Assembly (NCBI RefSeq): GCF_963676685.1
Contig: NC_092354.1
Location: 67,456,001 to 67,520,000, forward strand
DNA: 64,000 nt
Source: Mytilus edulis
Taxonomy: Eukaryota
Direction: 5' to 3'
The first letter of the stretch is position 1, and every line of letters begins with the position of its first letter. Made by a program: the position numbers and the translations under genes. The notes under the pieces are model-generated. The model worked only from the letters and a program-made list of their open reading frames with translations. It did no database searches and was not told where the DNA came from. Shown piece by piece: positions 19,705 to 54,177 of this stretch.

Positions 19705-20332
19705 TTTACATCGCTTTCTTTTGTTGTTGTCAATTTTTAATACATGAAAACAGAAAACAATTATTTCTAAAGCATCACATAACTTTAATACCATTTAGCA
19801 TGTGTCGGTAATGACATACTCTGAATAGGAACTGAAGTTTCACCGCCTCAAATTATGATGCCCCCCCCCCCCCAAAAAAAAAGAAAAAAACTCAGAAAAA
19901 AAAATTAAAAAAACTTTTGGTCCTACAACCTGTCGATACAATTTTTGGCATTGCACAAGGTCATGATTTTGTGCTCACAAACATGGTTTTACCCGCCTTT
20001 TTCAATTGTGCCTGTTCGTATCAATGGCTGAGTGTCGTTCGATGCTGTCCGTCATACATGTTTTTTTCTTTATAGTTATATCATAAATCAGGTTGTTTGT
20101 TTTTAATGTTAAAATTCCAAAAGAACCAAATACAACAAATGTTCCAAGAACTTTCTACGTTTTATAATGTTAAGGATGAACTAACTTAAATAGTTGGCAA
20201 TTTTAATCTTGTTAAATATTAAGTGATAATTATACAACTTCAAAATCAAAGCTATAGACCCCACTTGGTGAAGTTACCAAAGTTGTTGATCAGTTGAGGG
20301 ATATTCTGAGCAAAATCAGAACTACAAAACAG

Positions 20333-27445: not shown

Positions 27446-27641
27446 NNNNNNNNNNNNNNNNNNNNNNNNNNNNNNNNNNNNNNNNNNNNNNNNNNNNNNN
27501 NNNNNNNNNNNNNNNNNNNNNNNNNNNNNNNNNNNNNNNNNNNNNNNNNNNNNNNNNNNNNNNNNNNNNNNNNNNNNNNNNNNNNNNNNNNNNNNNNNNN
27601 NNNNNNNNNNNNNNNNNNNNNNNNNNNNNNNNNNNNNNNNN
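27446..27641. other. Assembly gap (196 N)
   Basis: Run of N. Confidence 1.
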
Positions 27642-28471: not shown

Positions 28472-28948
28472 ATGGAGAAAATACGCTACATTTCAAATAG
28501 AGGTGTAAGACACGAATTGTCAGATCAACTTTTAGGAAGAATTCGTGAAAGTAACTCTGATGCTGCTGACCATATCAGTTCCACAATTAAGGATGATTAT
28601 AATTGTATGGACTTTAAATTCAATAGACACACAACGTCTACCAACAACATATTTGATTATTTTAAAGGAGGAAAACTACATATGCCGACAGACATATGTC
28701 CGCAGAAATTCTCTGAAGAACTTGATTTTTGGGGTTTACCAGAAACTGCATTAGAAATGTGTTGTTTCACAAAATATGTTTCCTATTTTGATAACTTAAA
28801 CATTTTGAAAGTTTTAGAAGAAGGGGAATGTAAAAGAAATACTATGTTTGAGACAGTAGCGACGTTGACCAGAGGACACGGATGGAGGTCTATTCAAGCG
28901 AGAGTGTGGTCTGTAATGGAATATCCTACTTCATCTATTTCAGCCAAG
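28472..28948 (+). CDS. Divergent Shaw/Kv3-like voltage-gated K+ channel subunit A, exon 1 (T1 domain)
   Basis: GKLHMPTDICPQKFSEELDFWGL..ALEMCC matches HX5CX20CC; VWSVMEYPTSSISAK|gtaaaa is a phase-0 donor. Confidence 0.9.
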
Positions 28949-30512
28949 GTAAAATATGTTATGACAATTACTTTTAATTATTTTTTATAAAAATGTATAT
29001 TTGAGACAACAAGATGAAATTTCCAATTGATTCTTGATTACTGAACGTCCATTGCCGAGTATTTCATGAACATTCAGGATTAGACAGATGAAAAAAAAGG
29101 TTACAATATAGGCAGAACAGGATAAATGGTGGGCTTTTTTTTCTTACAATGTAAATTTACGGTATGTGGATATATTTGCCTTAGCTTGAGACGTGCCACC
29201 TGTGGACTCTTAGAAAGATGTTGTTTGTCTTCCTTTACATTTGCAGATCATGGCGATATATTTAAAGATGTAAGAAAACGAGGTAAAAGTGTCAATATGA
29301 CAACTATCTATCTAAGTCATAATTTGTAAAAGTAAACCATTATAGGTCAAAGTATATACTTCAACACGGAGCTTAGGCTCACGCTGAGCTGATCTACATA
29401 AATAATGCTTTGATGAGTGAAGCGTGTTTCTGATACACCCCTCTCCTATCCATTTTCCGGCAATTGAAATCGACAAACTATTGTTAAAAAAGGTAATCAA
29501 ATACAAATTCGTGGGCCACTCCGTGGTCAGCGATTACCTTATGTTAAAATTTAACCTTTAAGCTGCTACGAAAAATGTAACGATATGTAAACATCTTTTA
29601 CAAATTAAATTTCAGATGCATAGCATGCTTAATTTGTAACATATAATTACAAATGCATAATCACAAGGTATTCGATTATATAAATGTATATGTCTTAGTA
29701 AATACAAAGTTTATACATATCGACACCTACTATTGCAGGTTTTATTTTAATAGCTTTATATATGGTGTTTATACAACGTCTTCATTTTTTAATAATTTAT
29801 TGTTCAATAAGAAGTACAAAACTGGCAAATTTGAAAACGTAACCATTCAGACGCATGTTACCAAAATATCAATGAAAACTTATAGTGCTAACAAAAATGA
29901 CAAAAATAGTGACAAATTTCTGATGTTTAATGGCTGCGAAAATGCAAGAGATAAGTATCACTGACGGATAAACGAAGGCATGACATGAAAAAGTATTTCC
30001 AAGTTTTTACTATCACATTTCATTGGATATTGAAAAGCATTTTGATTTTGTTAGAGAGAAAGCTCATACTCTAGCTTTTAAATAAAATGGGTTATTCGGA
30101 AGTTGTTCGTATCAAATGGGTTATTCGGAAGTTTTTCGTATCAAATGAATTACATCGTATTAATTTGGATGCATTTATTTTCGTGGATATCAATTTTCAT
30201 GGATTGCTGAAAACATGCATATTCGTGGATATCTAATTTTGTGGTTTTGCAAATCTCTATATACAATGCCTTTTGCAAAAATCTTATTCGTTGAACATTT
30301 GAATTCGTGGTTTACCTGTACCCACGAAACGAACGAAAATTAGTATTCAACAAATAATAATGAATCCACAGTAATGTTAAAATATAGAACAAAACAATTA
30401 CCAATACTACATTGAGAGTAAATAACTACTCGTTAAACATTTACTAGTCTTTTATTGATTCACATCATTACAGAAACAAAATAGAATACATTGATTTGAT
30501 GAATCATTACAG

Positions 30513-31713
30513 CAGGGGTTAAGAAATTTTGTTAAAGCTCACTAGCCCAGGACTTATTGGTAGCAGGATTTTACTAGCCCTCTTGAAAGAATTAATAGCC
30601 CAACAAAACTGACCTACTAGCCCGAGTATGCCGTTTCCTGCAATAAAAAATGAACTCTATAAACTTCACAATTTTTATCCACTTGTACAGTGGATTGTTT
30701 TGCAAATTGGATACATAAAACTTACAGCAATAAATATCCCATTAGCAGATATTATATTCAATTCGCTAAATATACTGTAATAATGACTTGCTCAAATCTC
30801 GAGATGGTACAAGTCTTGACCACTTCTATACATGGTAAAAAGCATGCCTGGCATAAAAGGATTGGAGTAATTATTATCAGATATATCATCATTTTTGTGT
30901 AAAAGAAATATTAGCTGGTTACATATTATGATCATACTTGTTTTCAGTTTTAAAAATTCGATTTATTAAAATAAATCAAATGACCATAAATATATATGTG
31001 AATAAATATCACCATCCATACTTTGTGTCTCTTATTAATTTTATAAACGAAGTACAGTTATATCCATGGTAAGCTAATTGTGCGCTATTAATACTCCAAA
31101 CTAAGCACAGTCGCTAAACTGAAATTGTATTTGTTGTAAATTTTATTTCTTTAAAAATCAAATTCATTTGAATATCAATGAAGATAATCATAATAATAAT
31201 GATGAAATATTATTGCATCAAGTTTAAGTTTTCTGAAGACTGTCAATGTATAGGTCATGGTTCTAGAGGCTTCTTCACAGTATGTAAAAAGAACAAAATG
31301 GCTACCATAACATTTGCACATTTTACAAATTTATATCTGACAAAAGTCAGGTGTCTGCTGTTAAAAGCGGTTCACATTTATATTTCAATAAATTATTCAG
31401 AAGGAGGTACAATCTGCTTACATTATATTTCTCTGGTAGCATAAGCAATGTACAATACCCCTGTACTGAAAAATCGATATTGAAAGTACGGGATCCTACA
31501 AAATCAGTTCAAATTCTGGGATTCCCAGATGACGTAGTCGAATCTGATTGGCTAAGATATAATAGTGATAAGGGGATTTTCCACTTTATATTTCGGAAAT
31601 GCCAAGAATTTTTTGTTACTAGTCCGTCGGGCATATTGGGTTACAAGTTTTGGTTGCCCGTGGCCTCAATATTGTAGTCCCGGGTGTCGGGCTAGTGGAT
31701 TTTTTAACCCCTG
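30513..31713. mobile_element. Non-autonomous hAT-like element in the intron of Kv gene A
   Basis: TIR CAGGGGTTAAgAAAT...ATTTtTTAACCCCTG; subterminal ctagccc repeats; flanks attacag/attacaa (imperfect TSD). Confidence 0.7.
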
Positions 31714-33159
31714 ATTACAACAAAAGAATTGAGATAATTGTCAGTGTAAACTTTTCATCAAAACAAAATGACATGAATTGACATAAACAATGAGTTATTA
31801 TGAATATGATATATTGATTTCGGTCTTTTGATAATTGTATTTCAATGAATTATTTATTATATTTATATACTAGTGTAATCTGCCTGTTTAAAGAATAACT
31901 GTAACGATATTTTATTGTGTGTAATATAAAACAATTAATTGTATATCGATTCCCTATTGGGTATCTGAAATCAATATGATTGTCTTACTTGTTTGTGGCC
32001 AATCTTTGTCAACCAGCAACTAACGAAAGACCAATTTAGTATGAAGTAAACAACAAAACATACTTTATTTATTGATTGATTATAATTTGTTTCTATTTTT
32101 GAGTAAATTTGAGTAGAAGTTAGCTGTTTTTTTTCAAAGTATAGTTATATTATTACGTTTGGGTTTTTCTATAGAGCATATATTACAAGAGAGTTGAACA
32201 CTTTAAAGAAATAATTAAACTCATTTTTTCGAAAACGAATGGATAGTTGCTAAAAAACACAACACTCAACACAATATACAAAACTACAGACTATACAGAG
32301 CATACAGAGCTATACGAACTTCATTCAGGGTTAATAGCAGATGCATTGGAAGAATAAGCAAATCCTACTAAATATGAGGCACCTGTCGTGTTGGTTAGTT
32401 ACGTTAAAAAAGGCTGGATTTTGGTAACGAAATTCAGAATATATCAATCCTCATTTTTCGATCAGATATTGTATTAATGTCAACGAATTCCTTAAAAGTT
32501 TCAAAGCAACGACTTTAACTTAATCACTTGAAACTTTTACTTTTAACACCTGCTTGTAAACAAGAAAGCTGTATCAAGTACATTAAGATCAGAAATGCAA
32601 GCATTGCAATATCTTGAAAACATATTTTCCAAATGCAGCCGCTGCCTGATATGTTATATGTACAGATTTATTAAAATAAGGATGTGATCTAGAATATCTC
32701 ATTAATTCTGCTTCTGCCAGGTAATGGTCACAATCAACGGACTGATCATACTGCAATGCATTGACGGCATCGAGACCTTTGTATGCACAGAAGGGTTTAA
32801 GAAAGTTTGCATGTCCTCTTCATATTTTCCAATGCGAACAAGTATGTAGAAGAAGATTTCCATAATTCTATATGATAGCTGTAAATGTGTATTAATTTTT
32901 AAAAGTGATTTCCAAACGCAATTCTACAGTGATTGCAGAAAATCATAATCAATTTGTCTTTTCAATAAAATTGTTCAAGAATCTTACAAAGTCCTGTATG
33001 ATATTTCAAATATTATAGTCGTGCTTCTATGAATAATTATAAAAGTACATTGTAAATAAAGGAAAAATCAAAACGAAAAATAAATACTGTAAAAAAAGCT
33101 CAAAAGACATTCTGTGATTTAATGTTATAATTAACAGGTTTTCTATTTTCTACATTTAG

Positions 33160-34020
33160 GTATACCTATACTCCAGCAATGCCATTGTCCTGCTGTCTTT
33201 GTTTCTACTGGTCAGCAGTACACATCCGTTATTTAGAAGGAAATTAACAAAAGATGAATGGTATGATTACTTCACATCAGAGGAAGAGGAACTGTTTGAC
33301 GATTACTGGTTTAATGAAACACATTACGACACAGCAGTAATACTACCAAGACATGTTTACGTTGAAATCGATGCTTTTTGGTATCTCAAAATAATAGCAT
33401 TGGTGTACTTTACAACTGAACTTATCTGTAAACTTATAGTGTTTCCTTTGCCGTGGAGGGAGTTTATTACGATTTTAAACTTCAATGACGTTTTGGCCCT
33501 GGTTGTAATGTATACCACGCTCATTGTTAATCAAGTGAATCCTAAAGAACAATATAAAGATTCTGTACACGATGCCGTGCATTCACTGCAGATATTCCGA
33601 GTCTGTCGATTGTTCAGGTTGGTACGGCACATCACTGGATTTAGAATATTGATGTACGCGCTACGAGCTAGTATTGGAGATCTATTAGTCATGCTGCTAG
33701 GTTTGTGTACAGCTGTTTTATTGTTTTCGTCTCTCGCCTACCACTCGCAAGATTCTGCCTTTTCAACTATCCCTGACGCAGCGTGGTGGGCTATTATCAC
33801 TCTAACGACAGTTGGGTATGGAGATATCTACCCGACAACTATCCAAGGCAGGGTAATTGCTTCAATATGTGCAATCACTGGGGTGTGTCTTTTTGCTCTT
33901 CTGATACCAGTATTTGTTAATAATTTTCTCTTATTTTCCTCTCATTATGCTGGAATTGAAAGACGACAGACTTTAAAGGAACAACTGTTGACTAGACAAA
34001 CATCAGTGTCACCAAAATGA
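33160..34020 (+). CDS. Kv subunit A, exon 2 (S1-S6); total 445 aa
   Basis: tttag|GTA in frame. S4 LQIFRVCRLFRLVRH; pore WWAIITLTTVGYGDIYP; S6 GVCLFALLIPVFVNNF. Confidence 0.93.
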   Translation, partial: VYLYSSNAIVLLSLFLLVSSTHPLFRRKLTKDEWYDYFTSEEEELFDDYWFNETHYDTAVILPRHVYVEIDAFWYLKIIALVYFTTELICKLIVFPLPWREFITILNFNDVLALVVMYTTLIVNQVNPKEQYKDSVHDAVHSLQIFRVCRLFRLVRHITGFRILMYALRASIGDLLVMLLGLCTAVLLFSSLAYHSQDSAFSTIPDAAWWAIITLTTVGYGDIYPTTIQGRVIASICAITGVCLFALLIPVFVNNFLLFSSHYAGIERRQTLKEQLLTRQTSVSPK

Positions 34021-34135
34021 AGAAAAAAAAATAAAGAAAGTTGTGTGATTATTATATTGGGTGTATTTTATTTTCGTGGATTGAGGAACCCCTGCATTAT
34101 TGTGAATATTAGATGTCGTGGTTATGATCAAGTCT

Positions 34136-34212
34136 CAATCGTTACAACTCGGCCGATTCCGTACCTCATCAAACGAAGGAGAGTAGAGGAGTCACACGAG
34201 GATTGCCGATTG
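34136..34212. mobile_element. 77-bp miniature insertion with 10-bp TSD
   Basis: GATCAAGTCT on both sides (34126-34135 and 34213-34222); ends CAATCG...CGATTG. Confidence 0.65.
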
Positions 34213-34801
34213 GATCAAGTCTGCAAACAAACATTTAGTTCTTCTGTCCGTTATTGAATACTCAAATTGGAAGTTAGGTTTAATTCCTCAATCCATGAAA
34301 ACAGTTACAAATGAATAACAACGAAACCACAGTAGTTCGGAGTTAATATATATTGATTCGTGTTTTATTGAAAATTGTTTTATTCTTATACATTATATAT
34401 GGAATATATAATATGAAAATTATTGTCACATGTCATTTGAATCTATTACTGGTAATTTCAGACATTTTACCTGTATGTTGGTACTAAGCTATAAAAAGAT
34501 GGGGTAGAAGTGCCAATTAGACAACACTGCATCCGAGTCACAATTCATAAAAGTAAAGCAATATAGGTCGAAGCCAAACCAAATCAGACAATTTTCCATC
34601 AGAAACTAAAATACTAAGAAGTAAACAACTATAGGTCAGTGTACTACCTTCAACAATGAGCAAAGTCCATACTGCATAGTCAGCTATAAAAGGCCTCGAT
34701 ATGAAAAATGTTAGCTGTATTTGGCACAACTTTTTGGAATTTTGGATCCTCAATGCTCTTCAACTTTGTACTTGTTTGGCTTTATAAATATTTTGAGATG
34801 A

Positions 34802-34845
34802 GCGTCACTGATGAGTCTTAGGTAGACGAAACGCGCGTCTGGCGT
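34802..34845 (+). ncRNA. Minimal type I hammerhead ribozyme (intact core) within a retrozyme-like fragment (about 34711-34878)
   Basis: Stem I GCGTCA/TGGCGT; CTGATGA; stem II GTCT-taggt-AGAC; GAAA; stem III AC-gcgc-GT; cleavage triplet GTC ending at 34839. Confidence 0.85.
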
Positions 34846-35369
34846 ACTAAATTATAATCTTGGTACCTTTGATAACTAATTAAACATTTCGAACCAAACA
34901 ATAACGGTCAGGTCTATGTAGAAAAAACAACGCAGGAAGTACAAATGTGATACATAGCTACAGACCACACGTGGCAAGGTATATTTGCATCCCTACAACA
35001 CAAGAGACACATAATATATATTTAAGGTATCAAGGTACTGATAAGATCCACATGTACATGTATTTGCACCTACATTTATCTCCAGTTTTGTGAAAATGGT
35101 TTCTAATTTTAGTTTCAAAATATCATCATGTACATGCTAAAATTAAGTATAAACACTAATAAAGGATACCCCAAAAAAAAATCGAAATCGAGCTCCAACA
35201 TTGAACTCAAAAACCTATAGAAACACATGCAAGCAATTCATATATACCAACTTAATATATACTTCCCGTTAGTTTTAATTGATAAACATTTGTAATATGG
35301 GGTTCTTTTATAGCAGTCTTTGCGATATGGATTTTGATCATTGTTGAATGCCATACTTTGACCGATCCC

Positions 35370-36719
35370 TCCCCACCATGCCAGATATAACCATTAATAT
35401 CAATGGCATAATTTCACTTCTTAAAAAAATTAACTCCCATAAAGCTAGTGGGCCTTCCAATATCCCTGTTATTTTCCTAAATAAACTCTAGGAAGAAATA
35501 TCCCCCTTCCTTGAATTCATTTTTCAAAAATCTATAAATGATGGAAAAAGCCAAATGTTATCCCAATTTTAAAAAAGAGAGATAGGCATAAGGAAATTAA
35601 TTACAGGCCGGTTTCTTTAACGGCTACTTGCTGTAAGGTATTAGAACACGTAATAACAAGCAATATTAGAAAACATTTAGATTCAAATAATATTTTAAAT
35701 GATTGCCAACATGGATTTAGGAGTAAACGTTCCTGTGAAGCACAACTTATTATCATCATACAGGACAGAGCCAACTACAGTGTATTTGGCAGATTGTAAT
35801 CAGATCGATGTAATACTTTTATATTTTCGATAAGGTCTCATATCAAAGATTAATATCAAAACTAAATTACTATGGTATACGTAAAAATTATTTACTTTGG
35901 ATAAAAGATTTTATCAACAGAAACAGAAAGTCCTACTTAACTGTGTGTAATCTTTCAAATTGGCTGTTGACTCAGGGCACAGTATTATGCCCAACTTTAT
36001 TTTTGTTATTCATAAACGACTTATCTGAGCATGTCTCCTGTAAGGTTCGTCTTTTTGCTGACGACTGTTTACTTTATAAAACATCTTACAATACAAATGA
36101 GTCTTGCGCACACCAAAAAGATCTATCAAACCCTAAAAAATGGGAATTTGAATGGCAAATGAAATTTAATCCTGAAAAATGCTACGTCAAACATATTTGT
36201 AAAAAATCAAAACCTAATTTATTTCAATATACATTACATAATCATGTACTTTAATCTGTCAACGACAGCAAGTACAAATGTATCTAGGAGTTACAATAAG
36301 CAATGATATTGACTGGGAGCCCTATATTAATAATATAATTTCAAAGGCTAATAAAACACTAGGCTTTCTACGTAGAAACATGAACAACTGTACACGTAAG
36401 GTTAAAAACCATACGTACACATCACTTGTGCGTCCGACCGTCGAGTACTCCTCATCAGTTTGGGATCCATACAAACAAAACCAAATTAACCAAATTGAGC
36501 AGATACAACGAAAAGCAGCAAAATATGGTTTAATGACTATAATGATAGATCACCATGAGCTGTCACTGGTATGTCAAACTAACTTATATGGGAAAATTTG
36601 CAATCCCCCAGAATAAAAGCTAAACTTGTTCTTATTTATAAGATTAATGGGGGTTTTGTTGAAGTCACTAATGACGTCCTGACTCAGGCTGACCGGTGTA
36701 CTAAAGGACAACATAAATT
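35370..36719 (+). mobile_element. Decayed CR1/L2-group LINE ORF2, left part; continues at 40874-41030
   Basis: NYRPVSLT, QHGFRSKRSCEAQL, QGTVLCPTLFLLFINDL, RLFADDCLLY, YLGVTIS, LVRPTVEYSSSVWDP. Confidence 0.85.
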
Positions 36720-39700
36720 CAGGGCCGTAAATTGCCTCCCCTGGAAGGTGAGGCACCCTGCTGAGTGGAGCGAGGAAAAAAAAATTTGGACCCTTTTTAG
36801 ACAAAAAATGATTTTTTTTCGGGTTTTTTCCCTGTATGCAATATACCTCCCCAGAATCCACCACTTGTTAGAATTTTTAAGCGCCTAAAAATATTGAATA
36901 CAGTTGTCTGCTCTATGATCGGGTTGTTGTCTCTTTGACATTTTATTACTCATACTTTTGATCATCAAATTCAAATTAATATAAAGTAACACTGTTTGTT
37001 TATACTGAAAGTTTTATTTGGTTAAGCTTTATCAAATGCCAAGGCGATTTTTCTGTGACCGTATGAATCCCATCTCTTGAGCTCTTCTATACCTTCAATA
37101 TTGCCAAAATTGTCACTTCTATGAATGTGTAGCATAGCAAGACCATACAATCTGTTTTCCGTCATTGTTGACCTATTCCTTGTTTTGAGGCGCCGTAGCG
37201 CAGAAAACGATCTTTCACAACTGCAAGACCCAACTGGCAAGGCTAACAGAAGCAGTTGTATTTGTCTTATATTTGGGTAAAACTGCGTGTGTTTGATTGC
37301 TTGCTCTATTGTTCATTTTGACCCAATCTCCTTAATCGACGTAAAAGTTTTCCATCTGTGAACTCCTTGTGGCAAGTCATCAGGGTATGGAATATCATTT
37401 ATATACTCATTAGCAATAGAGCCTATAATGTCTTCCGTCAACTTACAAAAGTACCGTGGTAGCAAGTAAAATCCGTAAAGCATTGGCTTAATATCGTCCG
37501 GAAATCTGTCATTGAGATGTTTAATGATGTGATCAATCAATGGTATAAAAATGTTGATCCAATAATGCTGTTCTACAGTTTCAGCTGTTGCATTTGCCCT
37601 ATGGCGTAAGCGTCACAGATGTTTGCGGTTTGTTGATTGTAATGTCGTTCTTATTTGCGATTGTAGATGCTCTTTTAAAAAGCCCATCAAAAGCTTCTTC
37701 TGCGTGTTCCCGTATCTCGAGAAAAGATGCAGCTAGTGAACGAGCTTGAACGTGTGCTTTCACAAGATCACAGTTTTCAGATTGAAGTTCTATGGACAAG
37801 GGTCTTAGGTATCCTAGTAGGAACTGGGTTACGACCGCTACAACTAATATTTCAAAGTTAAGAAGAGTCATTTTGTAAGATGTAGCATCTGAGTTGCCGA
37901 CGGTTTGGTTTTGAATTTCATCAAGAATGTCAAGCACCTTGTCATAGTGTTTCAACAGCCAAGTTAATGTATCAGTTCGTGATGTCCATCGAGTTTCTGC
38001 TAGTGTTGGTAGTAGTCGTTTTTCCTGGCTGAATAAACCTTCAAATTAAATTGAATCGCGATTTGACCTTCATCTTTCATTACAGATTTCATAATATTTT
38101 TGCTTTACTGGACGCACTGATAAACCATGTGAATTTCTCTAAAATTGCCATAAAATGTCTTACAACTGCGACTGACTGACAACTGTTAACAACGACAAGA
38201 TTAAGACAGTGCGATCGACAGTGCACGAAATACTTCGCATTTGAAAGCTCTCGAGTAATTCTCGTCTTGACACCAGATACTTCTCCAGTCATCGTAGAAC
38301 ATCCGTCATAACCTTGTCCTCTTAAACGAGTCAGGTCAAATCCCAATTCACGAAGTTTATTTAGTATGCATGTTAATATAGTCTCTGCGTTCGTTTTAAC
38401 AAGCTCTACAAAACCACAGAAATCTTCCGTTACATACCAAGCATCGTTTTCTGTATAAAAATACCGGATACAGATAGAAAGCTGCGCTTGGTTCGAGCAG
38501 TCTGTGCATTCGTCTGCCATCACACTGAAGAAATTAGATTGATTACATCTCCTTACAATTTTGCTTCTAATTTCCAATTCGCAACAATGTATGAATTCAT
38601 TATGAGCCAATGGTGACAAGTAGAATGAAATTCAAAACAGTGTGGCTGTGGCCATTGATTGACACATTGAATTCATCCATTGACTGGGACAATTTAGGTG
38701 AACGTTTGTATGTAACGGACAACTGCTCACTATGGACCTTTTTAAGACATTTAAACTATGGGGTCACCAAAGGTTCTCTTCACATCAATAAAGTAATTCG
38801 AAAAAAATTAATCAGAAATAACACGATGTTTTGATTTATATCAATTATATAAATCAAAACATAAAGGTAATTTCTGATTAATTTTTCGAATTATTTTATA
38901 ATTAAAGGCGTTAAGAAACCTTGGTGACCCTACAGTTTAAATGTCTATCGTAGGTACGTCGTGAACAGTGGTCGTTACAGACTAACGTTCACGTAAATTG
39001 TCCCAGTCAATGGATGAATTTAATGTGTAAATCAATGGCCACAGCCACACTGTTTTGAATTTCATTCCATTTCCCATCAGAACATTTCTGTTCAATATGT
39101 TCCTTAAGGACCAAGTCAAAAGAAGATTTCCAATTCACAAAAAACATGAAATTTCCATCTTCCTCTGAAATTTCTTTTTTTCCAATTCCCCCGTAATGCT
39201 ATATTCCGTTTACCTAGGGTGATTATTACGTCTATCAGAGATAAAAGACTAGCTCTATTTTTTCAACCTTGTCACTGTATGCTTTGCTAATAGACTGGAC
39301 TATAGATGGCCTTCTCTGATCCGAAACCGATAGTAGGAGACCACTTTTTTCAAGAGCTTTCAGGTGACGCTCGCTATTAGAATGGAGCGCAAGACGACCT
39401 CTCTTCTCTCCTAATGCGTTTTTCCAGTCATTGTAAGGTATGGTAACACATTCATTGTATCGTGGATTTTCACTAGGGTGATCCTGAAAAGCAATACATA
39501 GAGAACAGTAAGCACAATCTTGTGAAGAAGAATATCGTAGCCAGGAATAGTCATTTTCCCATGATTTGTTGTAGCGACGATTTTGGTTATTTTTAGGATA
39601 TATATAAGAATTAGACGATGGTATCCATTTTGTCTTCAGTAGTTTCAGTCGATCTTCATCGGATAGAGAGCGCTTGTTGAATTTGACGGGATTACTGTAA

Positions 39701-40873
39701 TCGATTGGTGATAATAGTATTTCAGAAAATGTTGAAGGCGTGTTTTCACTGCATGCTAGCGCAGGTTCTGCCTCGATCACTGATTCATTTGGGGATGGAT
39801 TAATAGCTACTGAATTTTCATCGATGTCTCCCGTTTCTTCGTTTCCCGCTTTTCGAGCAACTTTAAAGTAAGAATCCAAACTTCTTTGCTTGTTACTTGT
39901 TTGGCGTTTTGACCTGCAATAAAATTTCCAATTGTTTAATTTCTAGTGTTTTATTATATGTCGGGCCTTCAATGATATGTAATAGGGATGGATCTATTTA
40001 AAAAAGGGGGAATTCCAACGCATGCAATTTCTACAAAGAAAAAGGGGGTCAACAAAATGTTGCCATACGAAATGAATACATCGGTTGTCAAAATAAAAAG
40101 TGGGTCTAACTTCCTGACCCAAACCTCGGATCAGCAACTGTGTTCACATAGCAATAAATTCATACAAGCGACAAACTCAGTTTGTTTTGGTGTTTTTTTT
40201 TTAAATATCGGTTTGCGGAAAAGGTGCAGGATGTTAAAAATATAATGACGGAATTAACGGGGGACTTCAAAAACAAGTGACAACGTACAGGCTGTCTTTT
40301 GGAAATGTCTAGAAAAAATCACCCGACACTGATCAGGACCGGTTATTATAAATTATATCAACTAAATTGTGGTGTCATGGAACCTCGGCTCTTGACATAA
40401 AATTCACAGTTATACTTACATTATTAACAAGTTGGTTAGTCTATGCACAAATTATGACGATTCATCTAGTTGTTAACCATTTAATGTGGCGCAACATCAG
40501 AACCAGTGGTCCAGTTTCAATCTGCTCCTCTGTCTGATATGGCGAGACAGCAGGATTTTTATTATGCCCGCGAATGAGACACAGGAAAATCCCGTGCTAC
40601 AAAATTGGCGGGAAATTTTTACGTGTGAAAAGGAGTTGGGTACCGTTCAGCGATATTCACCAGATTTAAATATCGAACACACCCTGTAATTATGATAAAT
40701 CACCTTGTTGGTCAAATTAATAACCGGTGCTATTAAAATAATGCATGATTTTAACCATTTTTTTTAATTTTCTGGGTTTTTTTTTTCGTATTTTTTTGGG
40801 GGTGAAGGGGGGGGGGGGTCAGCTCGCAATAGGAGGCAACTGCCTACATGCCTCCATGTAATTTACGGCCCTG
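36720..40873 (-). mobile_element. Full-length but inactivated hAT transposon (ZMYM1/P52rIPK-like transposase)
   Basis: Perfect 14-bp TIRs CAGGGCCGTAAATT. ORF pieces carry a TTF-type zinc finger (WLRYS..D.AYC..C..F), FSVMADECTD, RGQGYDG, FVHCRSHCLNL, ETRW and the dimerisation motif SCERSFSALRRLKTRNRSTM..RL.GLAMLHIH. Frameshifts present. Confidence 0.93.
38623..39067. mobile_element. About 445-bp fold-back (palindromic) MITE inserted in the hAT transposase
   Basis: GAATGAAATTCAAAACAGTGTGGCTGTGGCCATTGATT... is mirrored at 39030-39067, with arms pairing almost to the centre (about 38845). Flanks ta/ca. Removal restores DGK-Y-LSPLAHNE. Confidence 0.88.
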
Positions 40874-41030
40874 CATTTTAAACATATATATATACAAATA
40901 AAGACTTTTTATGTCATCTTTTTTCCAGAAGCACTATTGCTGTCTGGAACAATCCCCCAGAAGCAATATGCATGTCACCCTCCCTTGATTCCTTCAAAGG
41001 TGGTATCTCCGCCTTAACATTTGGAGGATC
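40874..41030 (+). mobile_element. 3' remainder of the LINE interrupted by the hAT
   Basis: Continues ..FKHIYTNKD, with SFF...TIAVWNNPP and SLDSFKG-like C-terminal LINE motifs. Confidence 0.7.
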
Positions 41031-41778
41031 CTGTCTGGTTAATTAGTAAATTTATTTAAGCCACTGTACATAATGTGAATTTGTTAAGAATTAAACTCCA
41101 ACTAATTTTAAATTGTAATTGAACTGTGGCAAATATTTTTTTTTTTTGATATAACACAATTTTCGACCTCCATTTGCATGTACATAGCGCCACAGTTCTG
41201 GGATATTCCACACTACGGCTCCGGAGTCTTTTCCGTATCAGGAAGAAGAAAGAAGATTTGTTAACATCTTTGTCATTTGGTTTAAGATGGGGAGTTGTCT
41301 CATTTTGTAATTCTTGTATTGAACACATCTTATACTATATGAATATGAATGCGTTTGGGCTTCGTGTGACCCAATAAGGCACTTTTGTTTTTCAAATAAT
41401 TAAGACAGGTTAATGTGTTTGCGTGTCATCACGGTGCGGAGCTATTAGTTTCAATAGACATACACGCCATCTTGAAATAAATACTGATCACTGATTGGCT
41501 ACTTTATGATGCGGCTGAGAATCAGCAACAGCCATTGGTTTAAATGAGATGAAGAATTACAGACTTTTTTCTCATTCAGGATATAAAGTCATTAAAAGCC
41601 GGAAAATTAACTATGTGCATATCAGTTCCGATCAACTGTCATTAATTCATGTTCGTTTTATTATGCATATATATTACACACTGAAATTCAATATTGAAAT
41701 ATCAATTATCAATACACGTTTATTTGCTTCGTCAACCTGCAATATGCACGATTTGTTCTGCGAAACAGTGTTCCTATA

Positions 41779-44700
41779 TACGGAGCGCCGATAGGGACAT
41801 ACAAAGAAAAAAAATATATATAGTGCGCACATAATAATATATTTTGCGCACAATTTAAATATATTGTGCGCACAATTTAAATATATTGTGCGCACAATTT
41901 AAATATATTGTGCGCATAATTTAAAGATATTGTGCGCACAACTTAAACATATTGTGCACACCAAAATAGTATACTGTGTGCCCAAAATAAGTCAAACAGT
42001 TTTCACTTGAACATGACCTCATTTCATGGATCATTGAACAAGGTTAAGTCGGAATCTCAGATACCATATGCAATAATTCTTCTATATTTGGTTGTATGGA
42101 ACGATTGTAATGTCTACTTGAACACTTGGCAGGTGTCATCTGACCTTTACCTCATTTTCAGGGTTGAGTGGACCGGCAAAGTAGAATTATGTTTCGGTCT
42201 ATTCCTCGGATACTATAACCATCCAGCTAGATATATTTGGAATATGGAATGTTTATTTGGTGTAATTGTCTTTCTTGCAGTAATAATCTGACCTTGATTT
42301 TATATTCATGGTTCATTGGTCCATGTTGTTTGATTCTTGTTTGGTCTGTTTTTCAAATACTATAAAGAATAAGTGAACTATATTTGTTTGGTGGAATGAT
42401 TGTAAGATATAAATATTTGTCTGGTCTGTATTATCTGACCTTGAACTTTTCATGTTTATTGGTTAATGATATATATCTCAGAATAGGTCTATTTTGTAGA
42501 TACGATAGTAAAGGTATAGTTTAACTATATATGTTATGTATACTACTATCAGATACTAACATGCCAGCACCAGACCTCAACTGATTGAAAATCTATAGCT
42601 ATGTCTAAATCATAATTATGAACATCAAACACAACCTTTCCCGTTAGGTGTTGAGTATCATACCATAAAATATATGAGAAGACTGAATATAACCCGTATT
42701 TGTATGAGCTATTGTGTATACTATGTAATTGTTTCATTGGCAATCGAACCAATCGCAATCATTCACCCCACAAGTTTTTAAATAAATGATGCACCAAAAC
42801 GGACCATATTTGGAAAACATGAATCATAATTGTTTTGTTTGTTTTCAAAATATTCCACTGAGGAGTACATTTTCATTTACTATTCCTAAATTGCTTTTTT
42901 TCATTTCTGTTTCATAATGTACGAACAACATTCTATAAATTGTATAATGAAATCGATTATCATCAAAAATAGAGCTAGTGACCTATTGTTCCCTCTTCTA
43001 TTAATCAGAATGAAACTAAAACTTGACCTTAAACATTTGTACATATATCTTAAAAAAATTAAATCATAATAAGCATACTGTGTTTGTCGTGTATTGGTTT
43101 GGTTAATATCTGTTTTTCGTTTTGTTATAGTAATTTGCGGCCTTTTATAGTTTGCAGTTTGGTGTGAGCCAACGCTCCGTGATGAAGACCTTACTATAAC
43201 CTATAATTATTAACTTTAAATAAAAGAGGGACGAAAGATACCAAAGGGACAGTCAAATTCATAAATCTAAAACAAACTGACAACGCCATGGCTAAAAATG
43301 AAAAAGACAAACAGAAAAACAATAGTACACATGACACAACATAGAAAACTAAAGAAATAAACAACACGAACCCCACCAAAAACTAGGGGTGATCTCAGGT
43401 GCTCCGTAAGGGTGAGCAGATCCTGCTCCACATGTGGCACCCATCGTGTTGCTTATGTGATAACAAATCCGGTAAATAATCTAATTCGGTAGGTCACATT
43501 CATGAAAGGGAAGGGGATTGTAGTTACGACCTAAGGAACATATCCGATATCATTTGTGAAACGGTTATTCCATAACGGTCAACCAACTTTTAATAAAAGA
43601 TGGGCGAAAGATACCAGAGGAACAGTAAAACTCATAAAATTATGACTTTGATAGAGGGCTGTCTCATTGGCACTCATATTGCCTCTCCTGATTTATATAT
43701 GTACTCAGTTTTATCTTTATTTGATCATGACTCATCACACCGTCACATTTCAATAACGAACAGTACATCTTGGGTCAAAACCGTACTTAATCATGATCCA
43801 ACATGGTCATCTTTTATAAAGATCTTGTAAGTGTACTCAGTTTTCAGTGGACTGGCTTAACTTACTCTTCACTTTCACAATGACATCTCAAAGTTTAGAT
43901 GACATTAAAACTTCATCATAATCTATAACCAACACATTTATCATCAATAGAGACGGACGGATGTCAGATCGTAAAATCATTTAAATATAATGACCATCTA
44001 TATCGTCGACGAGGCATTTTTTTTATTTGTCAAATTTAGACATGTTTCCAAGTTTTATCGTATTATTTCTTTTTTTTATCCATTAGAATCGAAATAAAGA
44101 AGCGTCGCCAGTACAACTGCATTTGCGACCGTCAAATTGACGGTGGCAACTCTTCAACTACAGTACTGTTATTCCTTAAATCTCAGTCGTCAATTGAGCA
44201 ACATATCAGTCTTGTACCAATCAACATAAACGCAATCTAGAGATTTGTAGACATGAAGTATAATGCATAAGTGCAAAAATTAAATGTATTTATCAAAGTT
44301 GTACAAAAGTCGAACATGAAGAATGTTGTTGTTGTTTATAATTAACACGTGTTGAGTTATTTATAGTAAGGTCGGTTTGAAAGGGGTTTAAAGTTTCATG
44401 CACGAGTTAATTCAGGTAGTTTAAAGCCATTGCAGTTAAAGTGACCAGTAGCACTTTTCTAAATAAATAATATAATAATTTTAAATTAATTATTTTCAGA
44501 TTTGTTCATCTTTAGTATGCGGTAACCAGTACCAGCTGAGAATGTTCGATGTAGTCACACAAAAACATTGATTTCATTATACATATACGAATAATAAAAT
44601 GCAAGTGACGTCTCCCATGTGAGAGTTTGTGGTTATTTGATTAATATTTTATATTCGTTTGAGTTTACGAATTAGAATTTAATAGTAGTTTTAAATTTGT

Positions 44701-45334
44701 TACAATAAAACACTTAACACCATATTATCAAAGTCTACATAAGTTCGATAGTGACCTCGCTCTATTGCGAAGTTTGTTTCAAACCGGTCAAATTAACACT
44801 GATATAATGTGGCAGCTTCCAACACATCGGTCAATAAACCAAGTTTCAGACGAAATACACATAACTTATTCAGTATTCCTGTCAGGTGACGATAAAAATG
44901 CAGGGATGATTTTTTGCCAAAAAATTGCGTATTTTCTTTTAATCTATCCCCATTTCAAAAGAAGATTTTAAATCTTATGCATTTCACCATTCTGTCACTT
45001 TAAAAAGGAGACATTAAAGCCCCATACCATGTGTAAGGTCATAGAATTTAACGAACAATGTTTTGTGTGCACAATATATTTAAGATGTGCGCACAATAAA
45101 GTTATTTAAGTTGTGAGCACAATATTTTTAAGTTGTGCGGACAATATATTTGAGTGGTGCGCACAATATATTATTTTGTGCGCACATTACATTATTTTGT
45201 GCGCACAATATATGTTTTTGTACGCACATTACATTATTTTGTGCGGACAATATATTATTTTGTACGCACAATATATTTAAGTTGTGCACACAATATATTT
45301 GTTTTGCTTTGCATGTCCCTATCGGGGCTCCGTG
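41779..45334. mobile_element. 3.5-kb composite element bounded by inverted arms with roughly 21-bp tgtgcgcaca tandem arrays
   Basis: ACGGAGCgCCGATAGGGACAT (41780-41800) and ATGTCCCTATCGGgGCTCCGT (45313-45333); flanks tcctata/ccctata. Confidence 0.6.
43222..43590. repeat. Copy of the abundant repeat also found at 4975-5300
   Basis: Shares gaaagataccaaagg.aca.tcaaa.tcataa...gccatggctaaaaa..aaaaga...ccccaccaaaaact...ctaattcggtaggtcacatt; AACTT.TAATAAAAGA-like duplication at both ends. Confidence 0.75.
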
Positions 45335-46204
45335 CCCTATACAACGTTTTCACAAAAGCATTAATTTATCTGTATTTTATAACTTCTCCTAATCAAGACA
45401 CACCTCCAGAGAGGCAGACCCGTAACGCACACTCTTAAAGTAAATCCATTTTATATCAATCAACTATCTAAGAATATCACATGCACACATATTACATTAA
45501 ATTAGGATAGAGCGAAGCAGTCCACAGCTTTAAGGAAATGTAAAACTTGTAATTGATTATTATCCCTCAATAAGTGCTGTTGATGTTTTTGATAAATTGT
45601 ACAACAATTCTACATGAAGTTAGAGGAATTCCATACAGAATTATAAAAGAACAAGAAAATAAATATACCACAACTCATGCACACACAGAGATACAGAACA
45701 CACGAACATTCAAAGTATCCTTGTAACACTTGTCAGTTTAATGCACATTTAACAGTATGACGTTGTGGATTATGTATTTTATGTGAATTTGTAATACGAA
45801 AGTTACTGTAAAGGCAATTAGTGACAATCATACTGATTAAAAATTTACATTTTAAAACAGCGGTTCATCGGTTCCATAATAATATATTTTAATACATCAC
45901 TTTCACATACTAAAATCAATTTTCTGATTGTTTTTTTGAGTCTTTTAAAGTATGTTTGCATGAAATGGAATGACATCTGAAACGTTGCTGTTGGAATAGA
46001 AATTCGTGATTATTAGACGATAACCATCACATTTGAAAATTCATTTATGAAAGCCTACTATAGGTCGTACATGCAAAAGAAATAGAATATCAATAAAAGC
46101 GAGTCGATTTGTACTTGGTGAAAATCTATTTTACATAATATTTATTGATTTCTGCACTTCGATTATAGCATTTGTGGTATTCAGACATCCTACAAATATA
46201 CACC

Positions 46205-46684
46205 ATGGAAAAGGTTATTTACACGATATATAACAAGGGTGACAAATCTGAAATTTCGAAAACAATTTTGGATAAAATTTCGTGTAATGGGTCAAGTGCT
46301 GGTAGACAGATAATATCTGCCTTCACTGAGGACAAAACTGTTGTTGATTTTCATTTCCAACGACATTCAACATGTACATCCAATATTTTGGACTTCATAA
46401 GAGGAGATTTATTACATATCCCAGCTGACGTCTGTCCAAAGAAATTTCGACAGGAAATGGAATTTTGGGGAATACCTGAAAATGAAATAGCAACTTGTTG
46501 TTTAACTAAATATCAAAGTTTTTTGGATGATGAAAAAACATTTAGAGTTTTACAACGAGATGAAAATGAGCGACATGCGCGAAAGGAAAGAATAAACGTT
46601 CTTAGCAAAGGCAAGGGATGGAAGGCAATACAGGCAAAAATGTGGCAAGTTATGGAATATCCGAGCACTTCAGTCATGGCAAAG
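46205..46684 (+). CDS. Divergent Shaw/Kv3-like K+ channel subunit B, exon 1 (T1 domain)
   Basis: accATGg start, homologous to gene A (MEK). LLHIPADVCPKKFRQEMEFWGIPENEIATCC; MWQVMEYPSTSVMAK|gtgagt. Confidence 0.9.
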
Positions 46685-47449
46685 GTGAGTAACAAATATA
46701 TATTATATATATTATATGTCGGGGCCATTTTATTCGACTTCACGGTAAGTTGTATTTACTGTTGTGGGGTGTATTATAGTTGCCTATAATTGCTTGTATA
46801 AACTTCATTAGAACTTTGGTGGACATTTGTCTCATTGGTTTTCCTACCACATATCTTTATCGTTATATAACATACAGATTTCAACTTTTATTTTTTACAT
46901 AATAAAGTTGTGTTAAAAATATTTGGTGACTTCTTAAATTTATGCTTGCCATTTAATTTGTTTTTAAATAATTTCTTTAAAAAATGATGAAATAATGTGA
47001 ACTGATATAGGCAAATTGATATTATGTAAAAAGTTTTTATAATATATACTGATGAATTCTACACTTGATATATACACTATATTTAAAGAATGTAGATTTT
47101 TATTACGTTAAATATTCGACTGAGGTTTTTCTCTAAATTCAGTAACTAATACCAGAGATTCTCCGACTAACGCTACTAAGACAACAGATATTCAATAAAA
47201 GTGATTTACATAAAAAAAAATTTAATTAAACGACAAGGAATTGACACATTTGCTGATGAATATAGACATGCATGTATAGATATAAATGCACCATTAACTG
47301 TCAGTCAGATTGCAATTCAACAAAACACATGTAGCAAACGCAGAGTCTGTTGAACATTGTTATAAGGTTTTGACAATAAACCAAAGGAAACATATATATA
47401 TATGTGTATAGTATAAATGTTAAATTCGCTTCTTTTCACTATTTTTCAG

Positions 47450-48316
47450 ATTTTCATGGTATTCAGCAATTTAATAGTACTGCTATCTTTATTCATTCTT
47501 GTGGCTAGCACGTCTCCGATGTTTTATGAATCATTAACCGAAGGTGAATGGGAAGAATATTTAAATGAAATAGAAAAAGAAAAATACGGATGGAAAGAAG
47601 CGGGCAGTTTTAATGAAACAATAATCGACCTTTTGCCAGACCTAACAAGTCGAGTGGAATGTTTGGACTATTTAGAATTGATAACTATTGTTTATTTTAC
47701 AATTGAGATCATTTGTAGGATTGTTTTCTTTCCCTTGACCTGGAAAGATTTCTTTAACTTTTTCATTGTTGTGGATGCCGTGTCCCTAATAGTGATGTAC
47801 GTTGACATGATAGCAAACGGGGTCGACGAACGAGAGAAATACGAGGACACGTTTGTTGAAGCGATAAAATCCCTGCAGATTATCCGAGTCATGAGACTTT
47901 TTCGGTTGTTGAAGCATGTGTCTAGTTTTCGCATTTTAGTCTTTACTATCCGTGCAAGTTTGAAAGATTTGCTTTTGATGTTACTTTGTCTTTTAACAGC
48001 AGTGCTAATATTTTCCTCCTTAGCCTTTTTCACACGTGATCCTGCTTTTACAAGCATCCCACAGGCATCATGGTGGGCAATTGTTACCTTGACAACTGTA
48101 GGGTACGGAGATATCGTTCCGAAAACATTGCCGGCAAGGTTAGTTGCCTCTGCATGCGCAGTAATTGGTGTATGTATGCTCGCTATACTGATTCCATCAC
48201 TTGTAAATAATTTCATGCTTTTTAACAGTCAACTTAATGTGATGCAACAAAAGAAGAAAACGAAAAACGAAGCATTTCTGGAAAACAGTGTTCTACCAGT
48301 CAATAAAAAAATTTGA
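47450..48316 (+). CDS. Kv subunit B, exon 2 (S1-S6); total 448 aa
   Basis: tttcag|ATT in frame. S4 KSLQIIRVMRLFRLLKH; pore WWAIVTLTTVGYGDIVP; S6 GVCMLAILIPSLVNNF. Confidence 0.93.
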   Translation: MFMVFSNLIVLLSLFILVASTSPMFYESLTEGEWEEYLNEIEKEKYGWKEAGSFNETIIDLLPDLTSRVECLDYLELITIVYFTIEIICRIVFFPLTWKDFFNFFIVVDAVSLIVMYVDMIANGVDEREKYEDTFVEAIKSLQIIRVMRLFRLLKHVSSFRILVFTIRASLKDLLLMLLCLLTAVLIFSSLAFFTRDPAFTSIPQASWWAIVTLTTVGYGDIVPKTLPARLVASACAVIGVCMLAILIPSLVNNFMLFNSQLNVMQQKKKTKNEAFLENSVLPVNKKI

Positions 48317-53106: not shown

Positions 53107-54177
53107 CAGGGGCGTGTCCAGGATATTTGAAAGGGGGGCGTAGAATAAAATATTTCGCCAAGCGAAGCGAGGCGAAAATTTTTTTGGACCTTTTTTGGCT
53201 TAAAAACATAAAATAATAGAGAATTGCACTAATGTAACGGTTCCTGACTTGGAGCATGTATATTTTATAGTTAAAGTGTCAGGGTGTGACATTTTTTATG
53301 CCGAGTTTTCTCCATTAATTGTCTATGGTATATTAAAATGATTGGATGGATCTTAACAGCAGTAGACCAATAACGAGAAATTCCAAACTCAAGGGTATAA
53401 GGAGTAACTTAACATTTCAATACCTAGGCCAGGATTTTATGAACGAGAGGCGTGATTACGGTTGAGGGTCCATGGGGAAGCTCAGAAGCTCCTGAATTTC
53501 AACAATTTAGCATCAAATTATGAAGTAATCCCTCTATTTTTGATTAAGTTCGGGTTTCGTTGAACGACACACATGATACAAGACAAATAAACACTGAAGA
53601 ATAAAGTTCTTTCGTTCTGAGTATTGCTTTAATGTGGAAATATACATATTTCTAGTATACATGTACCTTGACGCAAAACCTAAAATGAACACAGAAAAAT
53701 ACTGACGGACTATCATTTTCAATTACTAGAGTGGATTCATAAGAACCATTTTACGTGGATTTCTCATGGCGTAATCGTCAATAATTTTATCAAAATCAAG
53801 TTTAATGTCTCTGTGAATATATAAAAGAAGCAGAGCATTTAGGCGATCCTCCTTCATGGTGCTTCTCAAATCATTCTTGATCAACTTAAGGGATGAGTTA
53901 GCTCTTTCGGTGGAGCTTGACGTGACGCTCGTCAAAGCAAGTAAGAAGAGAACTTTCATGATGTTTGGGAATAAAGTCGAGCATGCCCTTACATCAGTTA
54001 AGGTTGATGTTATTGACTCTGGTTTGTCCTATTGATTTTCCCAAAACGACTTCCAGAGTCTCATCTCTTGCCTTCTCAAATTGGGGAATCAGTATAAAAA
54101 GAAATCAGAGTATGTGTTTAATTAATGAATATGATAAATTGCCATCATTCAATACAATACTAGCAGATTATAACGAT

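What the first reader, a model, noticed from the sequence alone, without database searches (positions are those of the whole stretch)
28472..48316. Tandem pair of highly divergent Shaw-like Kv subunits lacking the PVP gate: candidate lineage-specific silent/regulatory subunits
Seen: two intact genes (445 and 448 aa) share the same phase-0 intron before S1, intact TTVGYGD filters and T1 HX5CX20CC zinc sites. However, S6 reads ALLIPVFVNNF and AILIPSLVNNF instead of A(L/M)PVPVIV.NF. The first half of T1 is eroded (no NVGG or YFFDR), and the N- and C-tails are very short. Established: S6 gate substitutions characterise regulatory subunits that work only as heteromers (vertebrate KvS, cnidarian Shaker-family regulatory subunits). 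Inference: an independently evolved family of modulatory Shaw-type subunits, possibly partnering each other or a canonical Shaw.
Basis: partly seen in the sequence, partly recalled or inferred. Interest (0 to 1): 0.7.

Follow-up and report, generated by a model that had tools for sequence, protein, structure and literature searches.

The report
Mussel pair of single-proline Shaw channels
Two intact neighbouring mussel potassium-channel genes belong to an old, mollusc-wide and apparently untested branch of Shaw channels with a rewritten gate and assembly domain, so they may need partner subunits, more likely their own relatives than ordinary Shaw.

Summary
There are two intact two-exon Kv genes (445 and 448 aa, 47% identical), identical to annotated Mytilus edulis 'Shaw-like' proteins; B's intron is seen spliced out.

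The gate change is not special to this pair. Trees place both in Kv3, inside the published lophotrochozoan Shaw expansion, where 49 of 56 sampled members lack the first gate proline. They sit in a bivalve-plus-gastropod subclade ('FVNNF', 100/99) that also shares the eroded first half of T1, S4 R2→Q and loss of the S3 proline. Grouping with Kv2/KvS or with one canonical Shaw group (ShawA) is rejected.

Silence is plausible but unshown. For: all 27 verified homomer-formers keep P1, Shaker P473A/W is non-conducting, and gene A has lysine at the Shaker E283 countercharge (new here). Against the classic 3:1 model with canonical Shaw: P3 and the V6 seal are kept, the reverse of most regulatory subunits, and Kv3 sequences I take to be silent keep the T1 half that these have lost.

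Best reading: weakly voltage-dependent K+ channels assembled within the clade, with A as a dependent modulator. A new variant of a known kind; moderate interest.

The parts
28472..28948 (+). Gene A exon 1 (aa 1-159): T1/BTB domain and T1-S1 linker
   Evidence: BTB_2 E 3e-10; best hit Aplysia Shaw T1 3kvt, E 3e-16
28679..28765 (+). Gene A T1 zinc motif H70-C76-C97-C98
28949..33159 (+). Gene A phase-0 intron, GT..AG, 4,211 b
   Evidence: matches RefSeq protein P0001; spliced form not seen among the pieces listed
33160..34020 (+). Gene A exon 2 (aa 160-445): S1-S6, short C-tail, stop
33388..33390 (+). Gene A K236, a charge reversal at the S2 position equal to Shaker E283 / Kv1.2 E226
   Evidence: aligned to E of the Kv1.2 chimera; K in 12 of 12 A-type rows; acidic in 16/16 canonical Shaw and 11/11 Kv2
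33805..33825 (+). Gene A selectivity filter TTVGYGD (followed by I-Y-P; Y at the external TEA site)
33901..33918 (+). Gene A S6 gate LIPVFV (aa 407-412; Shaker PVPVIV)
46205..46684 (+). Gene B exon 1 (aa 1-160): T1/BTB domain and linker; zinc motif H71-C77-C98-C99 at 46415-46501
46685..47449 (+). Gene B phase-0 intron, GT..AG, 765 b
   Evidence: skipped in contigs X1 record 6 and X6 record 22
47450..48316 (+). Gene B exon 2 (aa 161-448): S1-S6; E236 kept at 47675-47677; filter at 48092-48112 (V at the TEA site)
48188..48205 (+). Gene B S6 gate LIPSLV (aa 407-412)
34021..46204 (.). 12.2-kb spacer holding transposon remains (LINE RT fragment, DUF4371 transposase-like fragments, palindromic repeats); no further Kv gene
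   Evidence: tblastn; Pfam; repeats

Best explanation
A and B are tandem paralogues from a duplication in the mussel lineage, inside a mollusc-wide subclade ('FVNNF') of the lophotrochozoan Shaw expansion. SHOWN: intact genes; K+ filter; zinc-type T1; a one-proline S6 gate that keeps the pore-facing residues (I2, V6); S4 with R2 replaced by Q; a first half of T1 far from the canonical Shaw consensus; K instead of E at the outer S2 countercharge in A but not in B. INFERRED: the one-proline gate is a working, selected gate of this clade, not decay. The rewritten T1 surface makes the subunits assemble mainly with clade members (A with B, or with the conserved paralogue P0395) and not with canonical Shaw. 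The resulting channels are K+-selective, slowly gating, without N-type inactivation (no N-terminal ball) and only weakly voltage-dependent. A-type subunits, whose K236 would repel R3/R4 in the activated sensor, probably give little or no current alone and act as modulators that shift opening positive and add an external TEA site. B, which keeps E236, is the more likely conducting partner, alone or in a mutual 2:2 pair.
For: Placement: Kv3 100/98; P1-less expansion 100/99; FVNNF clade 100/99; A+B 100/100 (same main clades). A+B with canonical ShawA rejected p=0.001, with Kv2/KvS p=0.008. Gate: in 68 chosen P1-less sequences, P3 is kept in 68, a hydrophobic residue at position 2 in 68 and V6 in 63, whereas 43 verified regulatory subunits keep P1 88%, P3 40%, V6 12%. 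Shaker tolerates A and W at V476 and I477, so the changes at positions 4-5 are mild. T1 first half, of 20 positions: canonical Shaw 19.2, Kv3.5-like 18.6, ShawR-like 19.0, Kv2 16.8, other expansion members 15.0, FVNNF 7.8, A-like 5.4, B-like 6.0. Clade-wide S4 R2→Q (34 of 36) and S3 proline absent (36 of 36). E283R eliminates Shaker function, and E283R+R368E subunits shift heteromer opening about 38 mV positive (PMC2217201). Precedent for mutual obligate heteromers: choanoflagellate SheliKvT1.1/1.2. A and B contigs occur in the same runs X1, X3, X6; A and B have consecutive accessions in three M. edulis assemblies. A vs B dN 0.46 with saturated dS, so purifying selection.
Against: No functional data. 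P1 is present in 27 of 27 verified homomer-formers and P473A/W is non-conducting, so a tetramer made only of P1-less subunits is unproven. Verified regulatory clusters also carry fixed cluster-specific gate patterns, and NvShakR2/3 have L/I-L-P at positions 1-3. T1 conservation counts are not interface energies, and I could not map interface residues on a structure. Canonical ShawA sequences carry K at the S1 countercharge (6 of 16), so a basic residue near the sensor need not silence a Shaw-type channel. Co-occurrence in bulk runs is not co-expression in a cell, and those runs are only guessed to be RNA. The one raw RNA run laid (about 6% read) had near-zero depth on the exon bins.
Confidence: 0.45

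Rival explanations
1. Classic silent (regulatory) subunits: T1 self-incompatible subunits that enter 3:1 or 2:2 heteromers with a PVP-bearing Shaw alpha subunit. In this case most of the lophotrochozoan Shaw expansion descends from one ancient regulatory subunit that lost P1.
For: 42 of 43 regulatory subunits have gate changes and 27 of 27 homomer-formers keep P1, P3, I5, V6. Lara 2023 states gate degeneration is not seen in alpha subunits. P473A/W is non-conducting. NvShakR2/3 lost P1 and kept P3. Silent Shaw subunits evolved in cnidarians and as vertebrate Kv3.5, and one Kv3.5-like row (P0093) also lacks P1. K236 in A. Fast evolution: edulis-trossulus orthologues are 88% identical and M. edulis database copies 95-97%. 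The nearest language-model cluster is named Kv subfamily G, with a Kv subfamily V cluster also listed (a lead only).
Against: A 3:1 partner must fit alpha T1 on both faces, and the Kv3.5-like and ShawR-like rows keep 18.6-19 of 20 first-half T1 positions, while A and B keep 5-6, fewer than the incompatible Kv2 subfamily. P3 and V6 are nearly invariant across the P1-less set, which relaxed selection does not predict (vs 73). Recalled, not verified: Aplysia aKv5.1, a divergent Shaker-family channel, gave currents alone; I could not place it in the tree.
Confidence: 0.33
2. Both genes are ordinary homomer-forming alpha subunits with an atypical one-proline hinge, giving non-inactivating, leak-like K+ currents that set the resting potential; the tandem pair is simple subfunctionalisation.
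For: Intact filter, zinc site, R3-R6 and the V6 seal. [quoted passage not shown]
Against: K236 in A mimics a change that abolishes Shaker function. No verified homomer lacks P1. The T1 D of FFDR is N in A and Q in B.
Confidence: 0.15
3. Non-conducting or decaying duplicates: the proteins are kept for a non-conducting role, or drift under weak selection.
For: High divergence between database copies and species; near-zero depth in the one raw RNA run laid; charge reversal in A.
Against: Open frames of 444-445 aa (A type) in five Mytilus species and 448-450 aa (B type) in M. edulis and M. trossulus. S4-S5 to S6 is the most conserved region (62% A vs B). The filter is invariant, and B is spliced.
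Confidence: 0.07

Closest known systems
Lophotrochozoan Shaw (Kv3) expansion, clade M of Jegla et al. 2012 (PMC3519636; Lottia 13 Shaw genes, Capitella 9)
   Same: A and B nest in a clade with proteins matching L.gig_71678 and L.gig_172897 (matched by eye to Table S1). Most members lack P1. Two Lottia fragments in Table S1 (L.gig_119857, L.gig_57197) carry the same xxP.FVNNF gate and are not among the Fig. S2 labels.
   Different: That paper mapped the expansion; the passages I read give no gate or functional analysis of it. The FVNNF subclade adds T1 first-half erosion, R2→Q and S3 proline loss; A adds K236.
Vertebrate KvS subunits (Kv5.1, Kv6, Kv8, Kv9)
   Same: Altered S6 gate with an intact GYG filter; possible obligate heteromer.
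   Different: KvS belong to Kv2; grouping A+B with them is rejected. Kv6-9 keep P1 and lose P3 and V6, the reverse of A and B.
Silent Shaw subunits: Nematostella ShawR and vertebrate Kv3.5 (Jiang et al. 2025 bioRxiv)
   Same: Divergent Kv3 members with short tails (Kv3.5-like rows) and gate changes.
   Different: Separate branches. ShawR gate is P-V-S-x-x-G; Kv3.5-like rows read mostly PIPIL(M/I). Both keep NVGG/FFDR, which A and B lost.
Nematostella ShakR2/R3 regulatory subunits
   Same: P1 replaced by L or I with P3 kept.
   Different: Kv1 subfamily, and V6 is aromatic (F/W), whereas A and B keep V6.
Choanoflagellate SheliKvT1.1/1.2/1.3 (PMC11287247)
   Same: Model for mutual obligate heteromers with zinc-type T1.
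   Different: Only a functional analogy; unrelated lineage, with N-type inactivation that A and B lack the N-terminus for.
Aplysia aKv5.1 (Zhao et al. 1994; seen only as a citation in PMC2229393)
   Same: Divergent molluscan Shaker-family channel described as non-inactivating.

Membership tests
Shaker-family Kv channel | T1/BTB domain plus six-TM core with TTVGYGD filter | tested here: met
Shaw (Kv3) subfamily | Phylogenetic placement in Kv3 | tested here: met
   100/98; outgroups were 2 Kv1-like and 9 Kv2-group rows, no Kv4 row was available
Shaw (Kv3) subfamily | Zinc-binding HX5CX20CC in T1 (Kv2-4 type) | tested here: met
   best T1 hit Aplysia Shaw 3kvt
Shaw (Kv3) subfamily | Co-assembly with canonical Shaw through T1 | not testable with these tools
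   needs co-expression; T1 first-half conservation is low
Canonical Shaker-family alpha subunit | P-V/I-P-V/I-I-V gate (P1, P3, I5, V6 in 27 of 27) | tested here: not met
   LIPVFV and LIPSLV
Vertebrate KvS (Kv5/6/8/9) | Descent within Kv2 | tested here: not met
   AU p=0.008
Vertebrate KvS (Kv6/8/9) | P1 kept, P3 lost, V6 aromatic or N | tested here: not met
Regulatory (silent) subunit phenotype | Atypical S6 gate substitution (a marker, 42 of 43) | tested here: met
   P1→L, I5→F/L, V4→S in B
Regulatory (silent) subunit phenotype | No homomeric current, function only as a heteromer | not testable with these tools
   needs electrophysiology
Regulatory (silent) subunit phenotype | T1 self-incompatibility with retained fit to an alpha subunit | tested here: inconclusive
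   sequence proxy only: first half of T1 is much less canonical than in Kv3.5-like and ShawR-like rows
Lophotrochozoan Shaw expansion (clade M) | Groups with Lottia/Capitella M members apart from canonical Shaw | tested here: met
   100/99 for 48 rows; Lottia anchors matched by eye to Table S1; Capitella rows were read but not put in the tree

The most novel reading that the evidence does not exclude
The FVNNF clade is a fifth, mollusc-specific assembly group of the Shaker family. It no longer mixes with Shaw, gates through a single proline, and builds weakly voltage-dependent K+ channels from its own paralogues. The mussel pair would be a mutual obligate heteromer in which A contributes a charge-reversed voltage sensor. 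Jiang et al. [quoted passage not shown]
Probability: 0.25. Interest if true: 0.75.

Novelty: new variant of a known kind. Interest (0 to 1): 0.45.

Why it matters
Molluscs are classic neurophysiology models and carry ten or more divergent Shaw genes (Lottia 13 Shaw genes), most with a one-proline gate, for which my searches found no functional study. Either outcome is informative. If they are silent, this is a very old and large radiation of regulatory subunits in protostomes. If they conduct without P1, the PVP rule derived from Shaker, mouse and Nematostella is not general, and molluscs may have a separate Kv assembly group. The mussel pair is a convenient test: short two-exon genes that differ at the E283 countercharge and at the TEA site. 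The pair itself is not unique, which limits the score.

Tried and rejected
T1 homotetramer prediction for A (aa 1-112, four copies, with zinc): no verdict, score 0.05, alignment not used; not evidence either way.

Sequencing-run search: no RNA holder listed on record.

No whole genome is held, so the full Kv set and synteny could not be counted. No third Kv gene or fragment lies in the window (tblastn).

Placing aKv5.1: paper searches gave no sequence or placement; only a citation; no listed protein carried that name. Orvis 2022, Klassen 2008 and Dong 2021 had nothing relevant for the terms searched. The ctenophore JGP paper was not held.

A Kv2/KvS origin, suggested by best PDB sequence hits to Kv1.2-2.1 and Kv2.1 and by some database names, was rejected by trees and AU test.

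A single loss of P1 with no exception was rejected: 7 of 56 expansion rows form a nested group with P1; the minimum is 3 changes on the whole tree.

A frameshift, assembly artefact or missing 5' exon is unlikely: orthologues have the same length and start.

Rows dropped: P0541 from T1 counts (no T1 in that model); the Kv5.1-like P0258 T1 count (misaligned, not used); the P1-bearing subclade from the 68-sequence gate count; two long branches, P0147 (no gate in the model) and P0199. dS between A and B is saturated, so no reliable dN/dS ratio.

Earlier scan notes: nothing on this gene family; two arthropod Shaker notes do not bear on it.
Full report
OBSERVATION. The window holds two same-strand, two-exon Kv genes 12.2 kb apart. 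A spans 28472-28948 and 33160-34020 (445 aa); B spans 46205-46684 and 47450-48316 (448 aa). Both have a phase-0 GT..AG intron before S1. They are identical to M. edulis RefSeq proteins XP_071140690.1 and XP_071140691.1 and 47% identical to each other. Pfam finds BTB_2 and Ion_trans in each. The filter and zinc motifs occur intact only at these two genes in six frames of the window. Contigs of 2 of 4 runs laid skip B's intron exactly, one of them covering the whole coding region. A's exons are covered by exon-confined contigs in 3 of 4 runs, but no listed piece crosses its joint. The one raw RNA run (about 6% read) showed near-zero depth on the exon bins. A- and B-type accessions are consecutive in three M. 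edulis assemblies, and a third paralogue (A2, 80-83% to A) shares the contig length of A and B orthologues in M. trossulus; it is not in this window.

WHAT THE GATE REALLY IS. Against Shaker PVPVIV, A reads LIPVFV and B LIPSLV. P1 is lost; P3 and the pore-facing positions 2 (I) and 6 (V) are kept. In Shaker, P473A and P473W are non-conducting, while V476 and I477 tolerate A and W (PMC2233862, passages). So P1 is the one serious change. In Pisupati et al. 2018 (PMC6279357; sections 10, 14, part of 19, Table S2 read) all 27 homomer-formers keep P1, P3, I5 and V6. The 43 regulatory subunits keep P1 in 88%, P3 in 40% and V6 in 12%; only NvShakR2/3 share the P1-lost, P3-kept start, and they have an aromatic at position 6. 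A and B therefore fail the alpha consensus but do not resemble the usual regulatory pattern.

WHERE THEY BELONG. Three homology searches and one search of 50%-identity representatives gave relatives in many molluscs. A 73-row IQ-TREE tree (LG+C20+F+G4, 380 columns) gives Kv3 100/98, an expansion of 48 rows 100/99, a 29-row FVNNF clade 100/99 and A+B types 100/100, sister to a conserved bivalve gene that M. edulis also has (P0395). Searches agree on these main clades. No Kv4 row was available. AU tests reject A+B with Kv2/KvS (p=0.008) and with canonical ShawA (p=0.001) (quick LG+G4 trees). Named FVNNF members come from Mytilus, Saccostrea, Magallana, Pinctada, Ylistrum, Mya, Mercenaria, Ruditapes, Potamilus, Solemya, Haliotis, Physella, Elysia, Nucella and Aplysia. 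The wider expansion includes Octopus, Lineus and Lingula. It matches expansion M of Jegla et al. 2012 (PMC3519636; passages, Fig. S2 labels, Table S1 rows cut at 400 characters): two of my rows match Lottia M members by eye, a Capitella M member reads FTVPIVVNNF, and two Lottia fragments not among the tree labels carry the xxP.FVNNF gate. With partial sequences added, 49 of 56 expansion rows lack P1, and the 7 that have it form one nested group. P1 loss is thus ancient, not a feature of this pair. Jiang et al. 2025 (bioRxiv; abstract, introduction, Kv3 section, passages; Table 1 is an image and supplements are closed) note separate lophotrochozoan Kv3 duplications without function.

CLADE-LEVEL ANATOMY. 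In 68 hand-chosen P1-less sequences (the P1-bearing subclade left out), P3 is kept in 68, position 2 is hydrophobic in 68 and V6 is kept in 63. Of 20 first-half T1 positions conserved in canonical Shaw, the mean kept is 19.2 in canonical Shaw (n=16), 18.6 in Kv3.5-like rows (n=5), 19.0 in ShawR-like rows (n=3), 16.8 in Kv2 (n=11), 15.0 in other expansion members (n=32), 7.8 in other FVNNF members (n=28), 5.4 in A-like (n=5) and 6.0 in B-like (n=3) rows. The labels Kv3.5-like and ShawR-like are my inference from tree position, taxa and gate pattern. In the membrane core, A and B keep about as much as Kv3.5-like rows (0.66-0.71 vs 0.68, whose T1 columns were superseded), so the T1 loss is disproportionate. 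The T1 fold is still predicted (best structural matches Kv4.2 and Kv3.1). The clade also has Q at S4 R2 (34 of 36) and no S3 proline (36 of 36). That leaves R3 and R4 as the main gating charges, as in invertebrate Shaw with S at R2; weak voltage dependence is inferred.

A has K236 where Kv1.2 has E226 (Shaker E283) (alignment). It is K in 12 of 12 A-type rows, while B keeps E. The position is acidic in all 16 canonical Shaw and 11 Kv2 rows and in 23 of 28 other FVNNF rows, two of which have R. In Shaker, E283R eliminates functional expression unless R368 or R371 is reversed, and E283R+R368E subunits shift heteromer opening by about +38 mV (PMC2217201, passages). A keeps R at both. This favours A as a dependent, right-shifting subunit. 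The caution is that 6 of 16 canonical Shaw rows have K at the S1 countercharge, so Shaw-type sensors may tolerate such changes.

MECHANISM. Best reading (0.45): clade-internal assembly with a working one-proline gate, A modulatory, and B or P0395 conducting, possibly as a mutual pair like the choanoflagellate SheliKvT1 channels (PMC11287247, passages). Classic silent subunits with canonical Shaw (0.33) remain strong, because no verified homomer lacks P1, regulatory clusters also fix their own gate patterns, and Lara et al. 2023 treat gate change as a marker of regulatory subunits, though not a cause (PMC9989356, passages). The language-model neighbour named Kv subfamily G is only a lead. Both being plain homomers (0.15) rests partly on Aplysia aKv5.1, which I saw only as a citation (PMC2229393, passages); that it works alone is recalled, and its clade is untested. 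Decay (0.07) is disfavoured by conserved frames, dN 0.46 with saturated dS, and 62% identity in S4-S5 to S6, although database copies and orthologues diverge fast (88-97%).

NOVELTY. The genes are annotated and the parent expansion is published. Ten paper searches found no description of the one-proline gate, of the FVNNF subclade or of function for these channels. The library lacks most subscription journals, and the Kv3 alignment files of Jiang et al. 2025 could already include them. Verdict: a new variant of a known kind, interest 0.45. The value lies in the clade and in a clean oocyte test, not in the tandem pair.

Noticed in passing
P0002, P0003, P0498, P0499 (Mytilus proteins): A third paralogue (A2), 80-83% identical to A, also with K at the E283 position, exists in four Mytilus species; in M. 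trossulus it shares the contig length of the A and B orthologues, so the cluster probably has three or more genes. It is not in this window.
   Followed up: partly
window 33913-33915: F at gate position 5 of A is L in the 11 other A-type rows; M. edulis database copies of A and B differ from the window by 3-5% of residues, high for Kv channels.
   Followed up: partly
P0246, P0255, P0256, P0033, P0035, P0040, P0043: A nested group inside the expansion carries P1: three rows read PIA (P3 lost) and four have an intact PxP, suggesting a regain or shift of the hinge proline.
   Followed up: partly
P0038: An unnamed Kv1-like protein has the gate VVPVFV, convergent on the FVNNF pattern.
   Followed up: no
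P0125, P0020: The Solemya member has R, and a 62% identical relative G, at the E283 position with D one residue later; possibly an independent countercharge change.
   Followed up: no
window 781-2514 (+): Three ORFs that look by eye like RNase H and tyrosine-recombinase parts of a DIRS-type retroelement; no Pfam hit at E 0.001.
   Followed up: partly
window 20325-22744: Tandem array of a 59-bp unit, 41 copies, 89% matches.
   Followed up: no
window 27446-27641: 196-base assembly gap 830 b upstream of gene A; any 5' non-coding exon or promoter could be affected.
   Followed up: no
window 35814-36888 (+) and 37599-39942 (-): Between the genes: a broken LINE reverse-transcriptase fragment, and DUF4371 transposase-like fragments interrupted by a self-inverted element at 38623-39067.
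   Followed up: partly
window 41780-41990 and 45055-45333: Two arrays of a 21-22-bp unit in inverted orientation about 3.2 kb apart, like the ends of a non-autonomous element.
   Followed up: no
window 60123-63109 (+): LINE with endonuclease and reverse-transcriptase domains in several broken frames; a hAT dimerisation fragment lies at 53726-54028 (-).
   Followed up: partly
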